The notes below the pieces were generated by a model that did not search any database, was not told the origin of the DNA, and saw only the letters and a program-made list of their open reading frames with translations. Position numbers and translations under genes: made by a program. From a virus, in the UHGV virus genome UHGV-0179344: DNA of 17,717 nucleotides; one strand, 5' to 3'. This document shows, in pieces, positions 3,234 to 17,717 of the stretch. Position 1 is the first letter of the stretch, and the number at the start of each line of letters is the position of its first letter.

Positions 3234-6200
3234 TTAGGTCATCCTGTTTCCGCGACCCTGAGCCGCCCTGAGTGATTTACCGAACTGGCCTTTGCCTTCC
3301 AGAGTCTGATTACTAAGCTCGTTCACGAGTTGTTTGTTATTCAGCTTCAGCACTGCATCCATCTCCTGCTGAGTCATACCAGGGCTTTGCGGCATGTTGA
3401 TAATCTGGCTGATGTGGTTTGTTTGTGAACTGCCACCTGAAGAGGACTCATTCTTGCTACCCGTCCCGAAACCTGGCTTTGACAATGTGGCATCCAGCCC
3501 ACCATTGCGAATAGCCTCAAGGTTAGAGACTCCAATGCGCTTGGTTGCCGCAGCGTCAAAGACGTATTCCTGCCCATGCACAACGCCAGAGATAGACCGC
3601 GTCGCCCCATTCCCGGTGTAGCCGCCGGACTGAAACCCAACAGCCGCAGCGCTGGTAATGCTCGAGGTTATAGTGGACATAAGCCCCACAACCTGAGCAA
3701 TGGCAGCAAGGTTTGCCGGAAACGGAAGCCCGGCCAGCGCCTGCCCCATCGCCATCGGCAACTGCAGGGCTGCCTGCGCCAGCGCGAACGCTTTCTGAGT
3801 GATGAACGCCGCTTTGTACATCGCTGACTGTTCGCCAAACATCGTCCCCATAGAATCAGTGATGCTGGAGAACGAGTTTTGCGCGGACTGAGCCTGAGCA
3901 GCGTAAACAGCCATACTCATAGCCTCCTGATTCTGGTTGCCCTGCTGGCGAAGCGCGTCCAGTTGTTGCTGCTTCTTCTGCTCATTCAGGACGCTATTCA
4001 TCGTTATCGCTTTTTCCTGATCACTCAGCCATTTGGCATAATCGCCCTGAGCAGTTTTCAGCTTTTCAATAATCTCCAGTTGCGGGTCAATTTGCAGGCC
4101 GATCATGTTCATGCCCTGACCTGACAAATCATTGTTTGTTGCGCCAGATTTCAACGTCCCACCAGCGGCATTAACACCGGATATTACAGAATCAGGCAGC
4201 ACCGATTTGCTAATCAGGTCGCTCGCTTGTTGCCCTGCGGCTTCCGGCGAAAGCTGTTTAAGCGTCACCATTTTTTGTAGAATCTCCAGGCGTTTCTGGA
4301 GTGTCTCGTTTTGCCTGATCTCTTTCGGTGCGATGTCCTCCTGCATTTTCCGGTAGTCGTCGAGCGTCTTCACCTGCCCCTGCAACGCCTCCTGATTTTT
4401 ATATGCCTGCAGAATTTCTTCAGAACGGGAGAGAATAGACTTCTGGTCGGCGGTTAGTTGCGCCTTAGACTTGAGGTCTGCAATCTGCTGCTCGAACTTA
4501 ACTCTCGCCTGTGTTGCGCTGTTAAGCTTGTCACTGGCATCCAGTTGGGACTGCATGGCTGCAGTCTGCTGATTTATCTGATCAAGTAACCGGGTTGCAG
4601 CATCCTCTGTATAGGCTTTCCCCTTGGGCGCCTTGGGTGTTTTCGGGTCTTTGTAGCGGTCATTTATTTCAGAATATATTCTGTCATATTCTTCTTGAGT
4701 ATATTTCCCGCGATACTTGGATAGCTCAGCCAACTCTTTAGCACGTTGCTGCTGCCGTGTCTGATATTTCTGAGAAAAGGCATCAGCCTTCTGCTGTAGT
4801 TTTATCCCTTCCTGCTGTTTTTTAAGGTATGGGTCATAGGATTCATTAATGGCGTCCTGAGCCATTTTCTCGGACTGCAATGAAGCTAGTCGCGCTTTAG
4901 CAGCATCGACCGCCTTTTGAAGCATGGAAAGGTCGCTAGACTTCCATGCGCCATATGGCCCAGCATATTTTGATTGTCCGGCACTTAAATCAGAGAGTGA
5001 CTTTTGCGCCCTACCCAGTTCGTCCTGAGCTTCTGCTATTTTTTGATCTATAGATTTTTCACGACCTATATCTAGCATGGCATCCCAGGCACCTTTCGCG
5101 GCATCACCCAACCATTTCCATGCCTGCTCCAGTGAGCCTAGGTTACCCTGAATCTGGTCAGCACGCTGCTTCATAGTCGCAGCATACGTATCTGTCGCCA
5201 GTCTCGCAGCCTCTTGCTGATTACCCTCGTCCTGCAACGCCTTAATCTGGTTGTAGGTTGCTAGAGTCAGGAAGTGATATTTGTCGTTCAGTTCTCCGAT
5301 AGCCGCTACCGGGTTTTGTGCGATTTTCTCGAAGTCTGCCACCATGCTATCGACAGATTTATCGGTCGCATCGTTCATTGCGACAACGGCCTCCGTGACA
5401 GTCTGCATTGAACCTGTAGCGATTTTACCACCAGAAACAACACGGTTTAGTGCCTGAGCGGCGGCGGCTGTGGTATTCCCTGTGTTATCTGCGACAGATT
5501 TCGCCATGTCTGCCAATTGCCCGGTGGTTACCCCGGCAATATTCCCGGTCAGAACAAGGGACTTATTGAACTCCTGTTGCTCCTGGCTGCCTTTGTACCA
5601 GGCATATGTGAGAGTACCCACAACTGCGACAAGAGCGCCGATCCCGATAGTCATGGGATTGAGAAAGCCAGTGAGTTTTTTGGCATTCTCAGCATTTTCA
5701 GACAATGAGTTAGCGTTATCTGACAGAGAATCACTGGATTCATCGGCGGCATCTCCGGCTCCCAGTATCTGCTGTTTTATGATTTCGAAAAGATTACCCC
5801 AACCGCCAAAAGAATCGGCGATCTGCGAACCCTGCTGCATGAAGATAGTGAACAAAGGCATACCGCCAGCCAGGCCAACAGCAATATCATTCAGTTGCGC
5901 GGGGAGTAACCGCATGGCATTTTTATACTGACCTGCCGAGATAGCACCATACCGCATTTCATTGCTGACCTGATTGAGACCTTTCTCCGTCAAATCCAGC
6001 TTATTTGAAAGCTCTGCGTGGTATTCAGGAGACAGGAGTCCAGCATCCCTAGCAGCCGATAATGTCGCGCGCTGGCTTTTCAGCCTTTCCAGGGCTGCGC
6101 CAAGAGGGTCTAATTGCGAGCGTATTTGAGAGAAACTAGCCTGGAGTTTTTCATTCTCTCCAGTGAGACCACTAACCCTGTTTCTGGCATCATCAATTTT

Positions 6201-6503
6201 GGCTGCGTAATCTTCAAAACTATCAGCATCTAAGAGGCCTTTAGATTTTGCCCGAGAAAGCTCCTGCTGTTGTTTGTCTAATTTGTTGAGGGCTGCGTTG
6301 ACTGGGTCTATGCTGTCAAGCAAATCCTGAAGCGCTGACTTTTCCTCCTGAGTAGCTTTTGTCACCCTCCCTGCGCTTGCGGCTGCCTTTTGCCCCCACT
6401 CTGTTAAGCCATGAAGAGCACTGGACAAACTGCTGGCATTTTTTTCCGCGCCTGTACTGTCAATGATTATCGCAAGGCGTGATGTTTGTTCAGGCATTAC
6501 CAT
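3234..6503 (-). CDS. Tail tape measure protein
   Basis: 1089 aa, Ala/Gln/Leu/Lys-rich helical sequence with hydrophobic segments (MTIGIGALVAVVGTLTYAWY, FALAQAALQLPMAMGQALAGLPFPANLAAIAQVVGL) and a Gly-rich C-terminus; lies between the chaperone genes and the tail-tip genes. GGAGA precedes the second ATG (6497), which may be the true start. Confidence 0.85.
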   Translation of the reverse strand: MVMPEQTSRLAIIIDSTGAEKNASSLSSALHGLTEWGQKAAASAGRVTKATQEEKSALQDLLDSIDPVNAALNKLDKQQQELSRAKSKGLLDADSFEDYAAKIDDARNRVSGLTGENEKLQASFSQIRSQLDPLGAALERLKSQRATLSAARDAGLLSPEYHAELSNKLDLTEKGLNQVSNEMRYGAISAGQYKNAMRLLPAQLNDIAVGLAGGMPLFTIFMQQGSQIADSFGGWGNLFEIIKQQILGAGDAADESSDSLSDNANSLSENAENAKKLTGFLNPMTIGIGALVAVVGTLTYAWYKGSQEQQEFNKSLVLTGNIAGVTTGQLADMAKSVADNTGNTTAAAAQALNRVVSGGKIATGSMQTVTEAVVAMNDATDKSVDSMVADFEKIAQNPVAAIGELNDKYHFLTLATYNQIKALQDEGNQQEAARLATDTYAATMKQRADQIQGNLGSLEQAWKWLGDAAKGAWDAMLDIGREKSIDQKIAEAQDELGRAQKSLSDLSAGQSKYAGPYGAWKSSDLSMLQKAVDAAKARLASLQSEKMAQDAINESYDPYLKKQQEGIKLQQKADAFSQKYQTRQQQRAKELAELSKYRGKYTQEEYDRIYSEINDRYKDPKTPKAPKGKAYTEDAATRLLDQINQQTAAMQSQLDASDKLNSATQARVKFEQQIADLKSKAQLTADQKSILSRSEEILQAYKNQEALQGQVKTLDDYRKMQEDIAPKEIRQNETLQKRLEILQKMVTLKQLSPEAAGQQASDLISKSVLPDSVISGVNAAGGTLKSGATNNDLSGQGMNMIGLQIDPQLEIIEKLKTAQGDYAKWLSDQEKAITMNSVLNEQKKQQQLDALRQQGNQNQEAMSMAVYAAQAQSAQNSFSSITDSMGTMFGEQSAMYKAAFITQKAFALAQAALQLPMAMGQALAGLPFPANLAAIAQVVGLMSTITSSITSAAAVGFQSGGYTGNGATRSISGVVHGQEYVFDAAATKRIGVSNLEAIRNGGLDATLSKPGFGTGSKNESSSGGSSQTNHISQIINMPQSPGMTQQEMDAVLKLNNKQLVNELSNQTLEGKGQFGKSLRAAQGRGNRMT

Positions 6504-6514
6504 TCTCCGGACAT

Positions 6515-6543
6515 GAAAAAACCCGCCGTAGCGGGTTTTGTTT
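6515..6543 (-). terminator. Intrinsic terminator after the small secreted-protein gene (symmetric, potentially bidirectional)
   Basis: Plus strand aaaaaa-CCCGC-cgta-GCGGG-ttttgttt: a 5-bp GC stem with tetraloop flanked by A-run and T-run; on the minus strand it directly follows the TAA of 6542..6826 and precedes the tape measure RBS. Confidence 0.5.
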
Positions 6544-6826
6544 ATTGGCGAGACTTTTTATCTCTCTCGTGCTCTGAGGCTATGTAATCATAGGTGATTT
6601 TAGCATTGCGGCATTGCTTAGATGTATCCCCGTCAATAAGGCACTCTCCGTGATATCTGGAGATATTTGATGACATGCTAATAGCAGATATGAAAATAGA
6701 CTCGCACCTTTTGTCGCCATTGCACGCCTGGACCCTCATGCTATCCAGAAGTTGAACTTCCTCAATTTGTGCAAAAGAATAACCACATGAAAAAGATAGG
6801 ACCAAACCCAAAATTATTTTTTTCAC
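6542..6826 (-). CDS. Small secreted (periplasmic) cysteine-rich protein, moron gene; function unknown
   Basis: From GTG 6826: MKKIILGLVLSFSCGYSFA followed by QIEE, a classical Sec signal peptide with an AXA-like cleavage site and no lipobox; mature part about 75 aa with 4 Cys. ATG 6847 is an alternative start (gives 101 aa). Local GC is about 40% against about 55% for flanking phage genes. Confidence 0.5.
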   Translation of the reverse strand: MKKIILGLVLSFSCGYSFAQIEEVQLLDSMRVQACNGDKRCESIFISAISMSSNISRYHGECLIDGDTSKQCRNAKITYDYIASEHERDKKSRQ

Positions 6827-6856
6827 TCCACACCCCATCAGTAACATTTACCAACA

Positions 6857-6943: not shown

Positions 6944-7498
6944 TTATTCAGGTAGAGCTTTGCCAAACCCGGGAAGCCTTATCTGCCCTTGCTGTTCAAT
7001 GCGCTCGATGCGAGCAAGCAGCTCGGGCTTTTTAACTCTGCCCCAGCGATTAAGCAGGCGACCTGACATGCTGGCCACGTCTTTCTCTTTCATGAACTCC
7101 AGCATGACGGCGTTTCGCTCCTCCTCAAACTGGCGCTGACCAATCTGAAGCATTGCGTACATCCAGTTGAAAGCGTTGATGTAAGCAATCTTGATCCGCA
7201 TGGCTTCTTTCTTGGTATAAGACATCACAAGAAGCATTAATCCATCCTTGCGGAGACGGTAGAACTTCTGCGGCTTACCATTCTGTAACTCATTGTTTTT
7301 ATAGCAAAGCTCAAAATTGAGCTTTGTATCAAACTCTGGAGGGCAAGCATCAATAGTCCTTTCAATATCGCGGACTACGTTTTTCGATAACTTGCCAAAT
7401 GCTTTTGCCACCATAAAAGAATCGGTAACCGGATCGTTGTTTGCTACAAAAATCAGATCGCGGAAATCGATGCCGTTAACGACTGTTGGGTAGTTCAT
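6944..7498 (-). CDS. Rha-family phage regulatory protein (N-terminal Rha domain, uncharacterised C-terminal region)
   Basis: The 287-aa track ORF has a junk Arg/Ser/Pro-rich N-terminal 103 aa that overlaps the upstream gene and terminator. From Met104 (ATG 7498, AAGG 8 nt upstream) the sequence VANNDPVTDSFMVAKAFGKLSKNVVRDIERTI ... RKDGLMLLVMSYTKKEAMRIKIAYINAFN matches my memory of the Rha-family N-terminal domain. Low GC (about 35-45%). Confidence 0.65.
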   Translation of the reverse strand: MNYPTVVNGIDFRDLIFVANNDPVTDSFMVAKAFGKLSKNVVRDIERTIDACPPEFDTKLNFELCYKNNELQNGKPQKFYRLRKDGLMLLVMSYTKKEAMRIKIAYINAFNWMYAMLQIGQRQFEEERNAVMLEFMKEKDVASMSGRLLNRWGRVKKPELLARIERIEQQGQIRLPGFGKALPE

Positions 7499-7650
7499 AG
7501 CGTGTACCTTACTTTGAGATGAACCTTTGCCGCATAGGAGATCAGCCCGTCGAGGCTCGCCAGCACTAACTGACATCCTCAAAGGCTCATTCCAAAGGGT
7601 TGGGTTCGACGTGGTTGGATGCGCTGCGGTGCGCGGTGAAATTCGGATAC

Positions 7651-7676
7651 AAAAAAGCCCCGGCGATTGCCGAGGC
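7651..7676 (-). terminator. Intrinsic terminator immediately after the GT chaperone stop
   Basis: Minus-strand RNA GCCUCGGC-AAUC-GCCGGGGC followed by UUUUUU, an 8-bp stem with one G-U pair. The pairing works only for the minus-strand transcript, matching the gene orientation. Confidence 0.5.
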
Positions 7677-8443
7677 TTATTTCTTCTTGCGGTCCTGCTC
7701 CTGCTTTTTGGCCCACTCATCGCGCCATGCGTCATCAAGTGCGAATATCGCAGCTTCAAACTCATCGCGATCGAGCTGTATGGGCCGAACAGACAGGTAT
7801 TGCTCAATGTCTCTTATGCCAAGGGGAAGCGGCGATCCCGTCATGCCTGCGTATGCCCTGGATCGGGAAATGATGGCGTATGCGCTTAGTATCTCGCCCG
7901 TTACGCCGTCTATCTCAGGCTCAGGAACGGGAGGCAACTTTAAACGCTCTCTCTTCCAGCGCTCCTTCTCTCCCTGCTCGCCGCCGTACTGGTTCAGCCA
8001 GGCTTGTGCTTCTGTGACTTTTTTACGGTTTCTTTCTTCTGCTCCGCCTTCCCTTCGGCAATCTCTGCTGCCGCTCCGAGGATTTGCCAGTAAAGCTCCG
8101 GGCGCTGCTTAAGAAGGGCCGCCCCTTTCTCTGGCGTATAGTCGATGGCTAATTCTTTACCATCTACCAGCTCGCCTACACCTTCCCAGCCTTTCAGCAG
8201 GTAATGAGCGCAGTTTTCGATAAGCAGGTCGTCAACTGAGTCGATATCGCCTACAGCAGACAGGTTGAAATCTTTCGTGCCGACCTTGTAGGTGGCATCG
8301 AGCTTTTCAATATGGCGACGTACGAGAGCGTTACGGGAGCGGTAGTGATGATTGTCCACACTGCCTACCTTCAGGCGCAGGCCTTCAATAGGCTCAATCC
8401 AGCGCTCACTGTTCAGGTCGATACGGGGTGCGATAATAATCAT
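7677..8443 (-). CDS. Tail assembly chaperone GT-like fusion made by programmed -1 frameshift (about 256 aa)
   Basis: ORF 7677..7937 is in the -1 frame relative to 7994..8443 and stays open upstream across the slippery site; the track start at 7937 is a TTG, so it has no convincing initiation codon of its own. Confidence 0.45.
7994..8443 (-). CDS. Tail assembly chaperone (lambda G-like)
   Basis: 149-aa acidic protein between the major tail and tape measure genes; the slippery heptamer lies 7 codons before its stop and a -1 frame ORF continues downstream. Confidence 0.6.
   Translation of the reverse strand: MIIIAPRIDLNSERWIEPIEGLRLKVGSVDNHHYRSRNALVRRHIEKLDATYKVGTKDFNLSAVGDIDSVDDLLIENCAHYLLKGWEGVGELVDGKELAIDYTPEKGAALLKQRPELYWQILGAAAEIAEGKAEQKKETVKKSQKHKPG
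8019..8025 (-). other. Programmed -1 ribosomal frameshift slippery heptamer A-AAA-AAG
   Basis: Minus-strand GTA AAA AAG in the G frame (plus-strand cttttttac); A AAA AAG is a well-known efficient -1 slip site in enterobacteria. Confidence 0.45.
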
Positions 8444-8458
8444 TGGATCCTCTGCATG

Positions 8459-8493
8459 AAAAAGCCCGACCCACCATGCAGCGCAGGCCGGGA
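8459..8493 (-). terminator. Possible partial terminator or stabilising stem-loop after the major tail protein gene
   Basis: Minus RNA CCCGGCC, 14-nt loop, GGUCGGG, then CUUUUU, between the major tail stop and the G start. The large loop makes it weak. Confidence 0.25.
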
Positions 8494-10472: not shown

Positions 10473-10852
10473 TTTCTCCGCAACTGGAGGCGGTATGTAG
10501 CCCGCGCCGGGTCGGTTGACACGTCCATCACCTGGTACTCCTGCGGCATTCCGGTAACCAGATCGGGCGCAATAATGATGTGGTCCACTGCTGGCTCATC
10601 CATCACCTCGTTAACCAGCGCGGTTAGCTTCAGGTCGCCAGCAAGAATGTTTACGTTGTCGATACGGCTGGTTTTGTATCGGGACAATACGCCGCGCCCG
10701 GTATAGTTCACCGCTGTTTCGCCACCAGTTTCGGTGACAGGATCCCATCCTGACTGGATGACGTAGCGACCGGTGAAGGCGTTAACAGCATCAGCAAGGT
10801 CGGTATCGAACGCCTCGGCAATGTCGGTCTGTAGCTCGTCACGAATGCCCAT
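10469..10852 (-). CDS. Head-tail adaptor / head closure protein
   Basis: Track ORF begins at GTG 10891; the internal ATG at 10852 overlaps the upstream TGA (TGATG) with AGGGTG upstream and is the likelier start (127 aa). Confidence 0.45.
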   Translation of the reverse strand: MGIRDELQTDIAEAFDTDLADAVNAFTGRYVIQSGWDPVTETGGETAVNYTGRGVLSRYKTSRIDNVNILAGDLKLTALVNEVMDEPAVDHIIIAPDLVTGMPQEYQVMDVSTDPARATYRLQLRRK

Positions 10853-11244
10853 CAGCGATACACCCTGAAAGCGAGAGGATTGGAGCGCCACTGCCCCAAT
10901 AGGGATAGCGCGAGTTGAACATCAGCGGGAAGAAGCGATGTCGAGGTCGCCTGTCCCGAAGCATAGGTTTTGGAGACCTTGACGCCGTCAGCATCTACCG
11001 TTTTGCTTGTCAGCGAGCCGGATTCCGTCTGCTGCTTATAGAGCGTGTCTTCAGCGGCAGATTTAGCCAGGTAAGCGCCGGCGGTAATGACATCTGCGGG
11101 GATAGCGTTGAGGTCAACGCCTTGCAGGTTCAGGTTGGTCATGTAGGCGTTAGCCTGAAGTACGGCAAAAGCCTTTTTATCCGGCGTCGTCCATTCGGTG
11201 CCAAGCACCCCGTCAACGTCTTTAACTGTCACGTAGGTTGTCAT
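10852..11244 (-). CDS. Head-tail connector protein (gp6-like)
   Basis: 130-aa ORF, first gene after the capsid/small-ORF block; call is by size and position. Confidence 0.45.
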   Translation of the reverse strand: MTTYVTVKDVDGVLGTEWTTPDKKAFAVLQANAYMTNLNLQGVDLNAIPADVITAGAYLAKSAAEDTLYKQQTESGSLTSKTVDADGVKVSKTYASGQATSTSLLPADVQLALSLLGQWRSNPLAFRVYR

Positions 11245-11258
11245 CTTGACTCCAGAAT

Positions 11259-11280
11259 TAAGGGGCCGAAGCCCCCTTCG
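11259..11280 (-). promoter_or_regulatory. GC-rich stem-loop downstream of the 70-aa ORF
   Basis: Plus-strand aaGGGGC-cgaa-GCCCCtt; on the minus transcript a GGGG/CCCC stem with a UUCG tetraloop followed only by UUAAUU. Confidence 0.3.
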
Positions 11281-11493
11281 TTACTTGGTGGACTTAGTCG
11301 CTTTCTTGGCTTCGGAGTTTTCACCGCCGCCATTGTTCACCGCGCCTTCGTCTTTCGGTTCGCTGCGGACGTGATCAACGCCGCCTGTTTCGCCGACTGT
11401 TTCTGGGCCAACGGTAATATTGCCGTCACTGCCACCGAATCCCCACCTGGCTTTCTGGTTTGGGTCGATATAGTTGTCTTTTGCTACGGCCAT
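11281..11493 (-). CDS. Small Gly-rich hypothetical protein (70 aa)
   Basis: Strong RBS GAGGAGG 5 nt before ATG 11493; Gly/Asn/Glu-rich, Lys-rich C-terminus; flanked on both sides by GC-rich hairpins. Confidence 0.45.
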   Translation of the reverse strand: MAVAKDNYIDPNQKARWGFGGSDGNITVGPETVGETGGVDHVRSEPKDEGAVNNGGGENSEAKKATKSTK

Positions 11494-11510
11494 AATGACC
11501 TCCTCATTAA

Positions 11511-11528
11511 GCCCCGGTTATCCGGGGC
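11511..11528 (-). promoter_or_regulatory. Perfect 7-bp GC stem-loop directly after the major capsid stop
   Basis: GCCCCGG-ttat-CCGGGGC, lacking a long U-tract; could attenuate or stabilise the capsid transcript. Confidence 0.3.
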
Positions 11529-11536
11529 ATGGTTGA

Positions 11537-12550
11537 TTAGGCTGCGACAGTAGAAGTCACAAACGCCAGCGGCACCTGCTTACGGTCGAACTTGCGATCC
11601 CAGTTGGTAGCCAGCGCCAGGTCAGCCCAGTTAGCAGAGACCGGACGGGTAGTGGTCGGCGTTCCGGTAATGGTGGTGCTCAGGAACGAGTAGCCCAGAG
11701 GATGAATCACAAAGTTGCGACGGGTCCACAGCGTTTCAGTGCCGCCACCGTTGCCGCGTGCAGGTTCGCGATCGTACTCAACGTCATCCTCCCCCTGCTC
11801 TTCTGCGTAACCCAGTGCGCCAGGCCCGAAGATAACAGACAGGTATTTCGCCGTTTCGCCAGTGCCGATCACCGGCATGCTGTCGTCAACCACTACGCGC
11901 ATACCCTGGAAGCGACCAAACTCAGGAATCTGGTCAGCCAGCGGGGTGAAGTCGATGAGGTTGAGGATCTGCAGCTCAGTCTGCACGGCAGAGTGCATCG
12001 CAATGACGCTCAGACCGCCAAGTTGACCGGAGTAGTCACCCATCGTAGCTTTGGCGCGGATGATTGCGGCTGCGTTGATAGTGCCACCGGCATCAATGAC
12101 CATGTCGCCGCCATCATTCGCTACGTTGTCATTGTATACGCCGATAGTGGTAGCAATGGCGCGACGCTGCGCCTGACGCTGCCAGTAACTGGTGAGGCGA
12201 GAGGCGACAAACTCCAGCGGATCCTGATTGGTGATATTTTTCACCAGGTTCATCGCGTTCCAGCCTTCGTTCAGGTATGCGGCGCGAGCCTGCATGCTGG
12301 CAGAGGTTACGGACAGCGGAACAGCGATATCGGTGTAGACGTCGTTCGAGTAGTTAGGCTCGATAGACGCGTCCAGATCAACCCACCACGGAATAGTGAA
12401 GGTGTTTGACGGCGACGCCAGCAGAGTGCTCATATCGCTGTTATTGGTCAGGATTCCTGACTCAAAAAATGCGGTGCGCTCTGCGGTATTAACGCGCATG
12501 TAGTCGCGCAGTTCGTCGCGGAATACGACGTCAGAAAGAATGGTTGGCAT
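11537..12550 (-). CDS. Major capsid protein
   Basis: 337 aa, directly after the scaffold gene and before the connector genes; size and composition fit a siphovirus coat protein; followed by a stable hairpin as often seen after highly expressed capsid genes. Confidence 0.75.
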   Translation of the reverse strand: MPTILSDVVFRDELRDYMRVNTAERTAFFESGILTNNSDMSTLLASPSNTFTIPWWVDLDASIEPNYSNDVYTDIAVPLSVTSASMQARAAYLNEGWNAMNLVKNITNQDPLEFVASRLTSYWQRQAQRRAIATTIGVYNDNVANDGGDMVIDAGGTINAAAIIRAKATMGDYSGQLGGLSVIAMHSAVQTELQILNLIDFTPLADQIPEFGRFQGMRVVVDDSMPVIGTGETAKYLSVIFGPGALGYAEEQGEDDVEYDREPARGNGGGTETLWTRRNFVIHPLGYSFLSTTITGTPTTTRPVSANWADLALATNWDRKFDRKQVPLAFVTSTVAA

Positions 12551-16016: not shown

Positions 16017-17113
16017 TTATCTTCTGAATGTAACAGGTGCCGACTTCAGCACGTCCCGTTTTTTCTGCGTTACTGCAAAGTATCTGAATCCGTCAGATCC
16101 GTGCGATGTCCAGTCGTGAAGTGGCTTGTCTTTCCAGCACCCTCGCTTGTCATCCCACTCCTTGCGATAGCTCTCCAGGGCGTTAAGTCCTTCTTCGCAT
16201 TTCACGTCATCAAAGGCGCATCGCGGGAGGATTTCACGCACCTGCTCGATACCGTCGTCAACGCCAAGCTTTGGCACCACCTGGAAGGTGATCCCATATC
16301 TGGTGCCGTCAATTTCGTAGCCTTCACGCGCCAGCTCTCGCCGGGTCTTGGCATCAGAACCGAACTCGCGGTTGTCAATATCGTGCGGCCCCCAGTGAGC
16401 GGCATAGGTATAGCCTTTATCCTTCAGCACCTTCATGTAATGGCGCAGGCCCTCACCGCTGTTCTCGTAGTAGTCGATGACGTGATACTCCTCGCCAACG
16501 ATGCGAACGAACCAGATAGCGGTGGAGTCGCTGACCCCGATATCCCAGAAGGTGTGGACAGGGAGGTGAGAGTTATCAGGAAGAGCACCAATGCGCTTCT
16601 GCTCGTAGAGCTTGCGGAACTGCTTAGCGTAGTAGGCACCTTCAACCGACTGCTGGAATGCTTCCGCTGGGATTGACGGATACTCCCGCTTCATGTCATC
16701 GCCGAGCGTTTTCTCTTTGGCGTAATACCAGGCCCGCTGACGCTCGTTAAGCACAATGCCGTACTTCGCCTCAAGCTCAGCGAAATAATCGCTCAGCCGC
16801 TGCGGTAGAGCCTCTACGGGGTCAATTGCATACAGGGCATTCTTCCACCAACTGAAAAAGAAGAATTTCCAGTCTAGAGATGAGAGCAACTTGCCCTGAA
16901 GTTGTGCTTTCTCAGCCGACTGACAGTAATCGAAGAAGTAACCAGCCCGGCCTTCCGCAGTGCTTTCAATCGTCGTGAAACAGTCGCTTGATACTGCCTC
17001 AAAAGCACCAGTGACAATCTCTCGGGCCTTGTCGGGAAACTTGGCGCAGATCTTCCCGAACTCGGAAACGTGCAGGTAGCGCAGCGTACCGCCACGGAAA
17101 GATGTGCTGATAT
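16017..17113 (-). pseudogene. Terminase large subunit, 5'-truncated by IS insertion (ATPase N-terminus missing, nuclease domain present)
   Basis: Track ORF 16017..17195 contains FWDIGVSDSTAIWF and WGPHDID, terminase nuclease-type acidic motifs, but its first ~27 codons lie inside the IS terminal repeat region. There is no Walker A and no plausible start downstream of the junction. Confidence 0.6.

Positions 17114-17717
<604 letters not shown>

What the first reader, a model, noticed from the sequence alone, without database searches (positions are those of the whole stretch)
11259..11528. Strong-RBS Gly-rich 70-aa ORF flanked by two GC hairpins between capsid and connector genes
The ORF has the best Shine-Dalgarno in the window (GAGGAGG) and is bracketed by a perfect 7-bp GC stem after the capsid stop and a GGGG/CCCC UUCG-loop hairpin after its own stop. 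This looks like a discrete, highly translated unit, possibly a decoration or head-completion protein, or an RNA-level device setting capsid to connector stoichiometry.
Basis: seen in the sequence. Interest (0 to 1): 0.45.

Follow-up and report, generated by a model that had tools for sequence, protein, structure and literature searches.

The report
Small conserved phage head-module gene with hairpins
This is a real, conserved 70-residue phage gene between the capsid and head-tail adaptor genes, bracketed by conserved RNA hairpins; the layout is already known from phage SPP1, and what the protein does is still unknown.

Summary
On the minus strand, a 70-aa ORF (11281-11493) sits between an SPP1-gp13-type capsid gene and an Ad1 adaptor gene. 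It has the strongest Shine-Dalgarno of 19 gene starts in the window. A 7-bp all-GC hairpin (11511-11528) precedes it and a GGGGC-UUCG-GCCCC hairpin (11260-11277) follows it.

The ORF is a real gene. Its median dN/dS is about 0.2. It is present in 78 of 78 assessable loci carrying a capsid gene at least 80% identical, in Enterobacteriaceae, Mixta, Pantoea and Pseudomonas prophages.

It matches no Pfam, PHROG, NCBIfam or PDB family, and AlphaFold gives no fold. The family has a conserved N-terminal module of about 57 aa (KARWGFGG…TVGETGGV…NNGGG). This is followed either by a short Lys-rich tail, as here, or by a coiled coil plus HeH/LEM domain.

Hairpin 1 is conserved as structure rather than sequence: 80 of 82 unique spacers, 44 distinct stems. 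Every one of 104 standard-layout loci has at least one of the two hairpins.

SPP1 has the same layout: capsid gene, stem-loop, strong RBS, a dispensable 58-aa Lys-rich ORF14, then the adaptor. Lambda's FI packaging chaperone occupies the same slot.

My best reading is an abundant accessory protein acting at the capsid/DNA interface, plus hairpins that partition the mRNA. A decoration role is less likely. Function remains unproven and interest is modest.

The parts
11537..12550 (-). Major capsid protein gene (337 aa), SPP1 gp13 type
   Evidence: phrog_247 at E 1.7e-95. Matches PDB 4an5/6r3a, the SPP1 capsid protein, at E 9e-42.
11511..11528 (-). Hairpin 1: GCCCCGG-AUAA-CCGGGGC, 7 G-C pairs, 8 nt after the capsid stop codon, no U tract
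   Evidence: A hairpin sits at this position in 80 of 82 unique spacers, with 44 different stems. The consensus helix is recovered de novo in the Pseudomonas subclass: 93% of cells paired, and 0 of 500 shuffles reach that value.
11499..11505 (-). Shine-Dalgarno GAGGAGG, 5-nt spacer to the ATG
   Evidence: Strongest anti-SD duplex of 19 gene starts, -13.0 kcal/mol. Relatives keep GGAG, AGGAG or GAGGAGG.
11281..11493 (-). 70-aa ORF: conserved N-terminal module (residues 1-57, ending NNGGG) plus a Lys/Thr-rich tail of 13 residues
   Evidence: 63 homologues. 20 invariant columns. Median dN/dS 0.2. Present in 78 of 78 assessable loci. No family hit in Pfam, PHROG or NCBIfam. AF2 pLDDT 57.
11260..11277 (-). 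Hairpin 2: (AG)GGGGC-UUCG-GCCCC(UU), a C(UUCG)G tetraloop hairpin, followed by UUAAUUCU
   Evidence: Its sequence is conserved wherever the downstream gene is the phrog_493-type adaptor. Two loci have a different hairpin at the same site. It is absent when the other adaptor type abuts the ORF stop.
10852..11244 (-). Head-tail adaptor Ad1 gene (130 aa), weak SD GGAG
   Evidence: phrog_493 at E 4e-37 and PF20557. SD duplex -5.9 kcal/mol.

Best explanation
SHOWN
- The stretch is a genuine small gene of the late (head) operon of an SPP1-type, lambdoid prophage.
- It lies in the slot immediately upstream of the head-tail adaptor gene.
- It has a very strong ribosome-binding site.
- It is bracketed by two RNA hairpins that are conserved among relatives on the coding strand.
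- The protein has no autonomous fold.
- Its first ~57 residues (DNYIDPNxKARWGFGG…ITVGPxTVGETGGV…AxNNGGG) are conserved and always travel with this capsid-protein lineage.
- Its C-terminus is modular: a 9-16-residue Lys-rich tail (here) or a coiled coil plus HeH/LEM domain.

INFERRED, RNA level
- The hairpins lack U tracts, and intact relatives carry Q antiterminator genes.
- They therefore most likely act after transcription. They would serve as 3'-exonuclease barriers or processing boundaries that make the capsid(+ORF) part of the polycistronic mRNA outlast the connector part.
- Together with the strong SD, this would make the ORF product abundant, while connector proteins, needed at about 12 copies, are made sparingly.

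INFERRED, protein level
- The product is an abundant, probably non-essential assembly accessory.
- It would bind the capsid shell through the N-terminal linear motifs and nucleic acid through the basic tail (or the HeH domain in longer forms).
- It would act at DNA packaging or head completion, as a functional analogue, not a homologue, of lambda gpFI, which occupies the same slot. A decoration role is less likely.
For: Gene is real:
- 63 homologues with 20 invariant residues.
- Median dN/dS 0.2 over 4823 pairs.
- Synteny capsid -> ORF -> adaptor in Enterobacteriaceae and Pseudomonas.
- Present in 78 of 78 assessable loci found through the capsid protein alone.

High expression:
- Best SD in the window and strong SDs in all relatives.

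Hairpins:
- Hairpin 1 occurs in 80 of 82 unique spacers with 44 distinct stems, median z -2.6.
- G.U pairs make the sense strand more stable in 51 spacers against 23.
- RNAalifold recovers the helix, and the pair-count test beats 500 of 500 shuffles and all slid registers.
- Hairpin 2 is conserved or replaced in place.
- All 104 unique standard-layout loci have at least one hairpin.
- A post-capsid-gene hairpin is also present in fPoEco01, PW916, JWT and SPP1.
- Q antiterminator genes lie upstream in intact relatives.

Protein architecture:
- Short and HeH-bearing forms.
- AF2 gives a disordered N-terminal module and a confident HeH domain.
- Distant homologue in lytic phage PMBT14, whose capsid protein is 48% identical.

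Slot analogues with basic or HeH character:
- SPP1 ORF14, 58 aa, Lys-rich, dispensable.
- Listeria phage 52-aa HeH protein.
- Kagunavirus 59-aa protein ending NNGGG-KRRRRK.
- An unannotated 100-aa Lys-rich ORF in PW916.
- gpFI bridges the capsid and the terminase-DNA complex (PMC13595911; PMC4493119).

Separate decoration or fibre genes coexist with the ORF in relatives.
Against: - There is no experimental datum on expression, virion content, or DNA or capsid binding for any family member (literature searches found none).
- There is no sequence similarity to gpFI or to any solved structure.
- The distance-matrix correlation only weakly favours the capsid protein over the adaptor as partner: partial r 0.47 versus 0.35.
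- A 13-residue Lys-rich tail is weak evidence for nucleic-acid binding.
- Hairpin function as a stability barrier is inferred, not measured. Some relatives have U tracts after the hairpin, so partial termination remains possible.
- In this window the prophage is cut off from its promoter by an IS element, so the unit may be silent here.
Confidence: 0.45

Rival explanations
1. Decoration or cement protein. The N-terminal module lies on the outer capsid surface in an extended conformation, at about one copy per capsid subunit. The tail, or the coiled coil plus HeH domain in longer forms, projects outward.
For: - Strong SD and placement on the capsid-gene side of hairpin 2 imply capsid-like abundance.
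- Strict co-occurrence with one capsid lineage.
- Disorder until bound is typical of cement proteins.
- The long forms, an anchor plus coiled coil, resemble head fibres; there is a weak phrog_4366 'head fiber' hit at E 0.047.
Against: - Relatives already carry Ig-like, collagen-like or tail-repeat proteins in the capsid-proximal slot in addition to this ORF.
- The variable C-terminal module is HeH or a basic tail, not an adhesin-type domain.
- No match to any known decoration fold.
Confidence: 0.2
2. Minor internal or portal-proximal virion protein. It would be packaged with, or bound to, the DNA and released at ejection, serving as a DNA-end or charge-neutralising protein or as a head-completion cofactor for the adaptor.
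For: - It is always the gene immediately upstream of the adaptor, whatever lies between it and the capsid gene.
- The C-terminus is basic or HeH.
- Some GenBank records label the Kagunavirus slot-mate 'head-tail joining protein', though by position only.
Against: - The N-terminal module stays the same with two different adaptor types.
- The very strong SD argues for more than a few copies.
- Those GenBank annotations carry no experimental support.
Confidence: 0.15
3. A dispensable filler gene with no role in assembly, as has been assumed for SPP1 ORF14. The hairpins would simply be ordinary leaky terminators or stabilisers of the capsid gene that happen to flank it.
For: - SPP1 ORF14 in the same slot is non-essential and an orphan.
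- The slot holds unrelated small ORFs in different phages.
- Hairpin 2 travels with the adaptor gene type rather than with the ORF.
Against: - 20 invariant residues and dN/dS of 0.2 hold across Enterobacteriaceae and Pseudomonas.
- Retention is 78 of 78 with this capsid lineage.
- A recognisable homologue survives at 48% capsid identity in a lytic phage.
- All three point to a selected, capsid-linked function.
Confidence: 0.15
4. The ORF is not translated, and the region is only a structured intergenic RNA.
For: Low-complexity, Gly-rich composition. No family annotation.
Against: - Protein-level conservation persists alongside saturated synonymous change (median dS 1.4, dN/dS 0.2).
- Start codon and SD are conserved.
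- In-frame fusions to an HeH domain recognised by Pfam.
- No Rfam family reaches its gathering threshold; the single sub-threshold match is on the opposite strand (E 0.22, 19.9 bits against a cutoff of 59).
Confidence: 0.02

Closest known systems
Bacillus phage SPP1: gene 13 (capsid), stem-loop, ORF 14, gene 15 (adaptor)
   Same: - The capsid protein is homologous (E 9e-42).
- The order is identical: capsid stop, a stem-loop within the next ~40 nt, a strong RBS (AAAGGAG), a small ORF (58 aa, Lys-rich C-terminus), then the adaptor gene.
- ORF14 is dispensable and of unknown function.
   Different: - No sequence similarity between ORF14 and this family (hhalign probability 0.2%).
- The SPP1 stem-loop has a U tract and is called a Rho-independent terminator; the window's hairpins have none.
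- SPP1 has no second hairpin after ORF14.
Lambda gpFI, DNA-packaging chaperone
   Same: - The gene lies between the major capsid gene and the first head-completion gene.
- gpFI bridges the capsid and the terminase-DNA complex and can be bypassed (PMC13595911; PMC4493119).
- A bipartite protein with a capsid-lineage-specific part and a nucleic-acid-type part would fit that job.
   Different: - No detectable sequence similarity (Pfam; PDB profile search including 2LSM).
- gpFI is larger and has a folded head-binding C-terminal domain (from memory of Popovic et al. 2012, which could not be read here).
- Here the conserved part is N-terminal and has no predicted fold.
Small HeH/LEM-domain proteins in the capsid-adaptor slot of Firmicute siphoviruses (e.g. 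Listeria phage vB_LmoS_293 gp07, 52 aa)
   Same: Same slot. Same HeH module as the long forms of this family.
   Different: They lack the KARWGFGG…NNGGG module. The window's own ORF lacks the HeH domain.
Guernseyvirinae (Kagunavirus/Jerseyvirus) 59-aa protein, phrog_4451
   Same: - The capsid protein is about 50% identical.
- The gene lies immediately upstream of the connector gene and after a UUCG hairpin.
- It shares the C-terminal 'EEAHNNGGG + basic tail'.
- It is conserved in 459 phage records.
   Different: Only 22 columns align (hhalign probability 79%). The N-terminal half is unrelated. Function is equally unknown.
Post-capsid-gene terminator/stabiliser hairpins and C(UUCG)G intercistronic hairpins of phages
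   Same: A GC-rich, often UUCG-looped hairpin directly after the most abundant structural gene occurs in SPP1, fPoEco01, PW916 and JWT. From memory, T7 T-phi after gene 10 and the CUUCGG hairpins of T4 intercistronic regions (Tuerk et al. 1988) are further examples.
   Different: There is no U tract here, and two hairpins bracket a gene. Whether they terminate, stabilise or mark processing sites has not been measured.

Membership tests
Lambda gpFI / Packaging_FI family | Sequence or profile similarity to gpFI (Pfam model; PDB 2LSM C-terminal domain) | tested here: not met
   No Pfam hit at E <= 0.01. The family profile searched against all PDB sequences at E <= 10 returns only bactofilin (E 0.24) and a cell-surface protein.
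Lambda gpFI / Packaging_FI family | Gene located between the major capsid gene and the first head-completion gene | tested here: met
   The ORF is always the gene directly upstream of the adaptor.
Lambda gpFI / Packaging_FI family | Binds the major capsid protein, stimulates packaging, and is absent from virions | not testable with these tools
   Needs biochemistry or proteomics. The only indirect support is strict co-occurrence with one capsid lineage.
Phage head decoration proteins (gpD-like, Ig-like Hoc/pb10, collagen-like SPP1 gp12) | A recognisable decoration fold or domain | tested here: not met
   No Pfam, PHROG or NCBIfam hit. AF2 mean pLDDT 57 with no fold.
Phage head decoration proteins (gpD-like, Ig-like Hoc/pb10, collagen-like SPP1 gp12) | Is the decoration function of its head module (no other decoration gene present) | tested here: inconclusive
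   The window has no other candidate. Relatives, however, carry Ig-like, collagen-like or tail-repeat genes in addition to this ORF.
HeH/LEM domain proteins (PF12949) | HeH helix-extension-helix domain present | tested here: not met
   The window ORF has no Pfam hit and ends 13 residues after NNGGG. Long family members do have the domain: P0064 scores 30.9 bits against a cutoff of 28.9, and the AF2 helices have pLDDT 84-86.
Rho-independent (intrinsic) terminators | GC-rich stem-loop | tested here: met
   Hairpin 1 has 7 G-C pairs. Hairpin 2 has 5 G-C pairs, plus one G.U and one A-U pair.
Rho-independent (intrinsic) terminators | U tract (at least 5 U in 8 nt) directly after the stem | tested here: not met
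   Neither hairpin is listed by the terminator scan. The tails are UUAAUGAG and UUAAUUCU. Most relatives also lack a U tract; a minority have UUUU.
Rho-independent (intrinsic) terminators | Transcript 3' ends at the site | not testable with these tools
   Needs Term-seq, Northern blots or 3' RACE in an induced intact relative.
SPP1 ORF14 | Homology to SPP1 gp14 | tested here: not met
   hhalign probability 0.2%. Only position, size and Lys-rich composition are shared.
Programmed frameshift/readthrough extension of the capsid protein (as in some Listeria/Lactococcus phages) | An open frame from the capsid gene's 3' end into the downstream ORF, plus a slippery site | tested here: not met
   Read. 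The zero frame meets TAA 10 codons after the capsid stop. The ORF's own frame has a TAA inside the hairpin-1 loop. There is no slippery heptamer before the stop.
Any Rfam RNA family | Covariance-model match | tested here: not met
   Only a sub-threshold match on the opposite strand: RF02884, 19.9 bits against a gathering score of 59, E 0.22.

The most novel reading that the evidence does not exclude
The KARWGFGG…NNGGG family, together with unrelated Lys-rich or HeH mini-proteins in the same slot (SPP1 ORF14, the Listeria HeH proteins, Guernseyvirinae phrog_4451), may form one functional class. These would be abundant, intrinsically disordered capsid-to-DNA tethers in SPP1-type head modules. 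They would do for pac-type siphoviruses what gpFI does for lambda, using short linear motifs rather than a folded head-binding domain. The bracketing hairpins would set their dosage together with that of the capsid protein.
Probability: 0.25. Interest if true: 0.5.

Novelty: new member of a known kind. Interest (0 to 1): 0.3.

Why it matters
If the functional reading is right, it assigns a role to a slot, between the capsid gene and the adaptor gene, that is filled by 'hypothetical' mini-proteins in very many siphoviruses. In SPP1, the best-studied relative, that slot is still listed as unknown and dispensable.

It also gives a clean comparative example of differential expression inside a long antiterminated late operon being encoded by short, stable hairpins rather than by promoters or canonical terminators.

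Practically, the family could be added to PHROG or Pfam, and its two conserved linear motifs are easy targets for mutagenesis. As it stands, this is a well-supported but ordinary piece of phage head-module anatomy.

Tried and rejected
- **Family libraries.** Pfam, PHROG and NCBIfam give nothing for the ORF.
- **Solved structures.** The family profile against PDB sequences gives only a chance-level bactofilin match, E 0.24.
- **Structure prediction.** AF2 on the short form shows no fold. AF2 on a long form shows only the HeH domain with confidence. I therefore ran no fold search, because a low-confidence model would give meaningless matches.
- **Cultured phages.** tblastn of the ORF against 50,697 phage records finds no match. 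Megablast of the region against E. coli genomes finds none. Only remote relatives turn up through distant family members, PMBT14 and Almagne.
- **Rfam.** Nothing reaches threshold.
- **Simple terminator scan.** Neither hairpin qualifies.
- **RNAalifold on all spacer classes together.** It gave no structure, because MAFFT misregisters the different stems. Restricting to one alignable class recovered the helix.
- **Frameshift or readthrough fusion to the capsid protein.** Rejected from the reading frames.
- **Mirror-tree comparison.** Intended to choose between capsid protein and adaptor as partner; inconclusive.
- **Literature.** Searches on HeH proteins, Jerseyvirus virion proteomes and PMBT14 gave no functional data. 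Popovic et al. 2012 on gpFI is not held.
- **Within-window statistics.** Counts of hairpins do not exceed shuffles, so the case rests on comparative data.

Full report
**1. What is there.**

All genes of the window's phage region run on the minus strand. In transcription order they are:
- an IS-type transposase fragment (17122-17625, rve domains);
- a large-terminase gene lacking its first ~130 codons (16017-17195);
- the portal gene (DUF4055);
- a Mu-F/SPP1-gp7-like gene;
- the scaffold gene;
- the major capsid gene (11537-12550; phrog_247, E 1.7e-95);
- the 70-aa ORF (11281-11493);
- the Ad1 head-tail adaptor (10852-11244; phrog_493);
- Hc1, the tail terminator, the tail tube and the tape measure.

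The capsid protein is a homologue of SPP1 gp13 (PDB 4an5/6r3a, E 9e-42).

- Hairpin 1 is GCCCCGG-AUAA-CCGGGGC at 11511-11528, 8 nt after the capsid stop codon.
- The SD is GAGGAGG at 11499-11505, 5 nt before the ATG.
- Hairpin 2 is GGGGC-UUCG-GCCCC at 11262-11275, or 7 pairs at 11260-11277, just after the ORF stop.
- Both hairpins appear in the MFE and the centroid fold of the region.
- The SD is the strongest of 19 gene starts: -13.0 kcal/mol, against -12.1 for the tube gene, -6.0 for the capsid gene and -5.9 for the adaptor.

Taken alone, the hairpins are not more than chance would give in 17.7 kb. Their reality rests on comparison with relatives.

**2. The ORF is a real, conserved gene.**

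A search of 5.8 billion proteins found 63 relatives. They come from Enterobacteriaceae, E. coli, Mixta and Pseudomonas and are almost all 64-73 aa long. Twenty columns are invariant: D6, P11, K14, R16-W17-G18, V28-G29, T32-V39, R43, A51, N54-G55.

The identical protein lies in intact lambdoid prophages with Q antiterminator, lysis, terminase, portal, Mu-F, scaffold, capsid, ORF, adaptor and tail genes. The same order holds in Pseudomonas and in metagenomic phages.

Across 108 distinct nucleotide versions, the N-terminal module has median dS 1.4 and dN/dS 0.2.

Of 80 viral contigs retrieved through the capsid protein alone (80-100% identity), 78 encode the ORF family. The other two contigs end 78 and 344 nt after the capsid gene.

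A profile search of 1.84 billion representatives found only 23 hits, so the family is narrow. Recognisable distant members keep two motifs, Y-I/L-x-P-x-x-K-A-R/K-W-G-F and NGGG.

No Pfam, PHROG or NCBIfam model, and no PDB sequence, matches.

**3. Architecture of the protein family.**

Seventy-nine distinct sequences from the loci fall into two forms.
- Short forms (66-73 aa) end, after NNGGG, in a 9-16-residue Lys/Thr/Ser-rich tail, as in the window.
- Long forms (103-181 aa) continue into a coiled-coil-like linker and a C-terminal HeH/LEM domain. P0064 scores above the PF12949 gathering threshold, and the C-terminal region matches phrog_2101.

AF2 gives no fold for the short form (mean pLDDT 57). 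For a long form it gives only a tentative hairpin in the N-terminal module but confident HeH helices (pLDDT 84-86).

So the conserved N-terminal 57 residues behave like linear interaction motifs, and the C-terminus is a swappable module of the nucleic-acid-binding type.

The lytic Pseudomonas phage PMBT14 has a 110-aa homologue covering both parts (hhalign 95%, E 4e-8). Its capsid protein is 48% identical to the window's.

Kagunavirus and Jerseyvirus phages have capsid proteins about 50% identical. They carry a 59-aa protein (phrog_4451) just upstream of their connector gene that shares only 'EEAHNNGGG + RRRRK'.

**4. The slot.**

The ORF is always the gene immediately upstream of the adaptor. 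It keeps the same N-terminal module with two different adaptor types: the phrog_493 type, and a 167-aa DnaT_2 type starting MALIIEDG.

When something is inserted, it goes between the capsid gene and the ORF.
- In about 8 loci it is a ~1-kb gene for a collagen-repeat or phage-tail-repeat protein.
- In Kagunavirus it is an Ig-like 'capsid decoration protein'.

These look like the true decoration or fibre proteins, comparable to SPP1's collagen-like gp12. That lowers the likelihood that the ORF itself is the decoration protein.

Other phages put unrelated but compositionally similar mini-proteins in the same slot.
- SPP1 ORF14: 58 aa, Lys-rich, dispensable, 'orphan' (PMC6316719).
- Listeria phage vB_LmoS_293 gp07: 52 aa, HeH only.
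- PW916: an unannotated 100-aa Lys-rich ORF.

In lambda the slot between the capsid gene E and the head-completion gene FII holds FI. Its product is a packaging chaperone that bridges the capsid and the terminase-DNA complex and can be bypassed by suppressors (PMC13595911; PMC4493119).

A protein with a capsid-lineage-specific module, a DNA-binding-type module and high expression fits that job. There is, however, no homology to gpFI and no experiment.

Distance-matrix correlation favours the capsid protein over the adaptor only slightly (partial r 0.47 against 0.35).

**5. The hairpins.**

Hairpin 1:
- Of 82 unique capsid-to-ORF spacers (24-81 nt), 80 have a stable hairpin starting 4-10 nt after the capsid stop.
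- There are 44 different stem sequences, for example GCCCCGG/CCGGGGC, GCUGGCCCC/GGGGCUGGC, GCGCGGCGGGU/GCCCGCCGCGC and CACGGCAGGGCCC/GGGCCUUGCUGUG.
- The median z-score against shuffles is -2.6.
- Many stems contain G.U pairs that would be A-C mismatches on the other strand. The sense strand is the more stable in 51 of 80 spacers, against 23 for the antisense.
- In the alignable Pseudomonas class, RNAalifold finds the helix unaided.
- The pair count gives 93.4% of cells paired, and 0 of 500 shuffles reach either that figure or the covariation score. Slid registers give at most 68%.

Hairpin 2:
- It is sequence-conserved (GGGGC-UUCG-GCCCC; loop variants UUAG, CUCG, UCCG, UUUG) in enterobacterial and Pseudomonas loci whose flanks have diverged completely.
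- One variant has a U.G closing pair.
- Two loci have a different 9-10-bp hairpin at the same place.
- It is missing exactly where the other adaptor type abuts the ORF stop.

Of 104 unique standard-layout loci, 62 have both hairpins, 33 only hairpin 1 and 9 only hairpin 2. None lacks both.

Relatives outside the family (fPoEco01, PW916, JWT, SPP1) also have a GC-rich, usually UUCG-looped hairpin right after the capsid gene, some with a U tract.

The window's hairpins have no U tract, and intact relatives encode Q antiterminators. From this I infer that they act post-transcriptionally, as exonuclease barriers or processing boundaries that keep the capsid(+ORF) mRNA segment more abundant than the connector segment. 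That step is inference. Leaky termination is not excluded.

**6. What was excluded.**

- Frameshift or readthrough fusion to the capsid protein is excluded by stop codons in both relevant frames.
- No Rfam family matches.
- The 'untranslated' reading is excluded by the codon-level conservation and by the in-frame HeH fusions.

**7. Status in this window.**

The prophage is truncated in the terminase gene by an IS element. The late operon has therefore lost its promoter region, and the unit may be silent here, although its sequence is 100% identical to that in intact prophages.

**8. Verdict.**

This is a previously unannotated but narrow small-protein family in a known slot, in the same capsid/stem-loop/strong-RBS/mini-ORF/adaptor arrangement documented for SPP1.

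The mechanism I think most likely is an abundant disordered capsid-DNA accessory, gpFI-like in role, whose dosage is set together with the capsid protein by bracketing RNA hairpins. My confidence in that reading is about 0.45.

Novelty: new member of a known kind. Interest: about 0.3.

Noticed in passing
window 16017-17625 (-): The large-terminase gene aligns only from residue 131 of the intact 494-aa homologue. An rve-type IS transposase C-terminus lies directly upstream, so the prophage is truncated and defective.
   Followed up: yes
window 8465-8492 (-): A terminator-like hairpin with a U tract lies directly after the tail tube gene. That gene also has the second-strongest SD in the window, so the second abundant structural gene shows the same arrangement.
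   Followed up: partly
window 6518-6539: A perfect 9-bp hairpin, AAAACCCGC-CGTA-GCGGGTTTT, flanked by A and T runs and so bidirectional-terminator-like. It sits in the short spacer between the 101-aa ORF (6542-6847) and the tape-measure gene (3234-6503).
   Followed up: no
window 6944-7807 (-): A Rha/ORF11CD3-domain gene, a regulatory 'moron', is embedded in the tail module between the tube/YdaY-like genes and the tape measure. Relatives carry different cargo there (KilA-N/P63C, Arc, Bro-N, Imm_superinfect).
   Followed up: partly
L049:2073-2990 and L099:1828-2991: In about 8 related phages a ~1-kb gene is inserted between the capsid gene and the small ORF. It encodes a collagen-repeat (PF01391) or phage-tail-repeat (PF12789) protein, and the two versions share N- and C-terminal ends. 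This is probably a head fibre or decoration protein with exchangeable shafts.
   Followed up: partly
L010:4087-4389 (Pseudoxanthomonas phage PW916): An unannotated 100-aa Lys-rich ORF lies in the 387-nt 'gap' between the annotated capsid and adaptor genes. It contains an 'SRARWGG' string reminiscent of the family's KARWGFGG motif.
   Followed up: no
window 11488-11514 (-): The SD GGAGG sits in the loop of a weak A/U-rich stem (UUAAUGA / UCAUUA) that includes the start codon. Relatives can form a similar stem in a shifted register. Its significance is unclear.
   Followed up: no
window 11260-11277 and 11506-11510 (-): Both hairpins in the window are followed immediately by the same A/U-rich pentamer, UUAAU. 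This could be an RNase E-type cleavage context, but it is not conserved in Pseudomonas relatives.
   Followed up: no
L012 (Siccibacter colletis strain 1383, NZ_JMSQ01000039.1): This genome carries a 100% identical copy of the ORF and a 99.4% identical capsid protein, so the window probably comes from Siccibacter or a close enterobacterial relative. There was no match in 5,426 complete E. coli genomes.
   Followed up: partly
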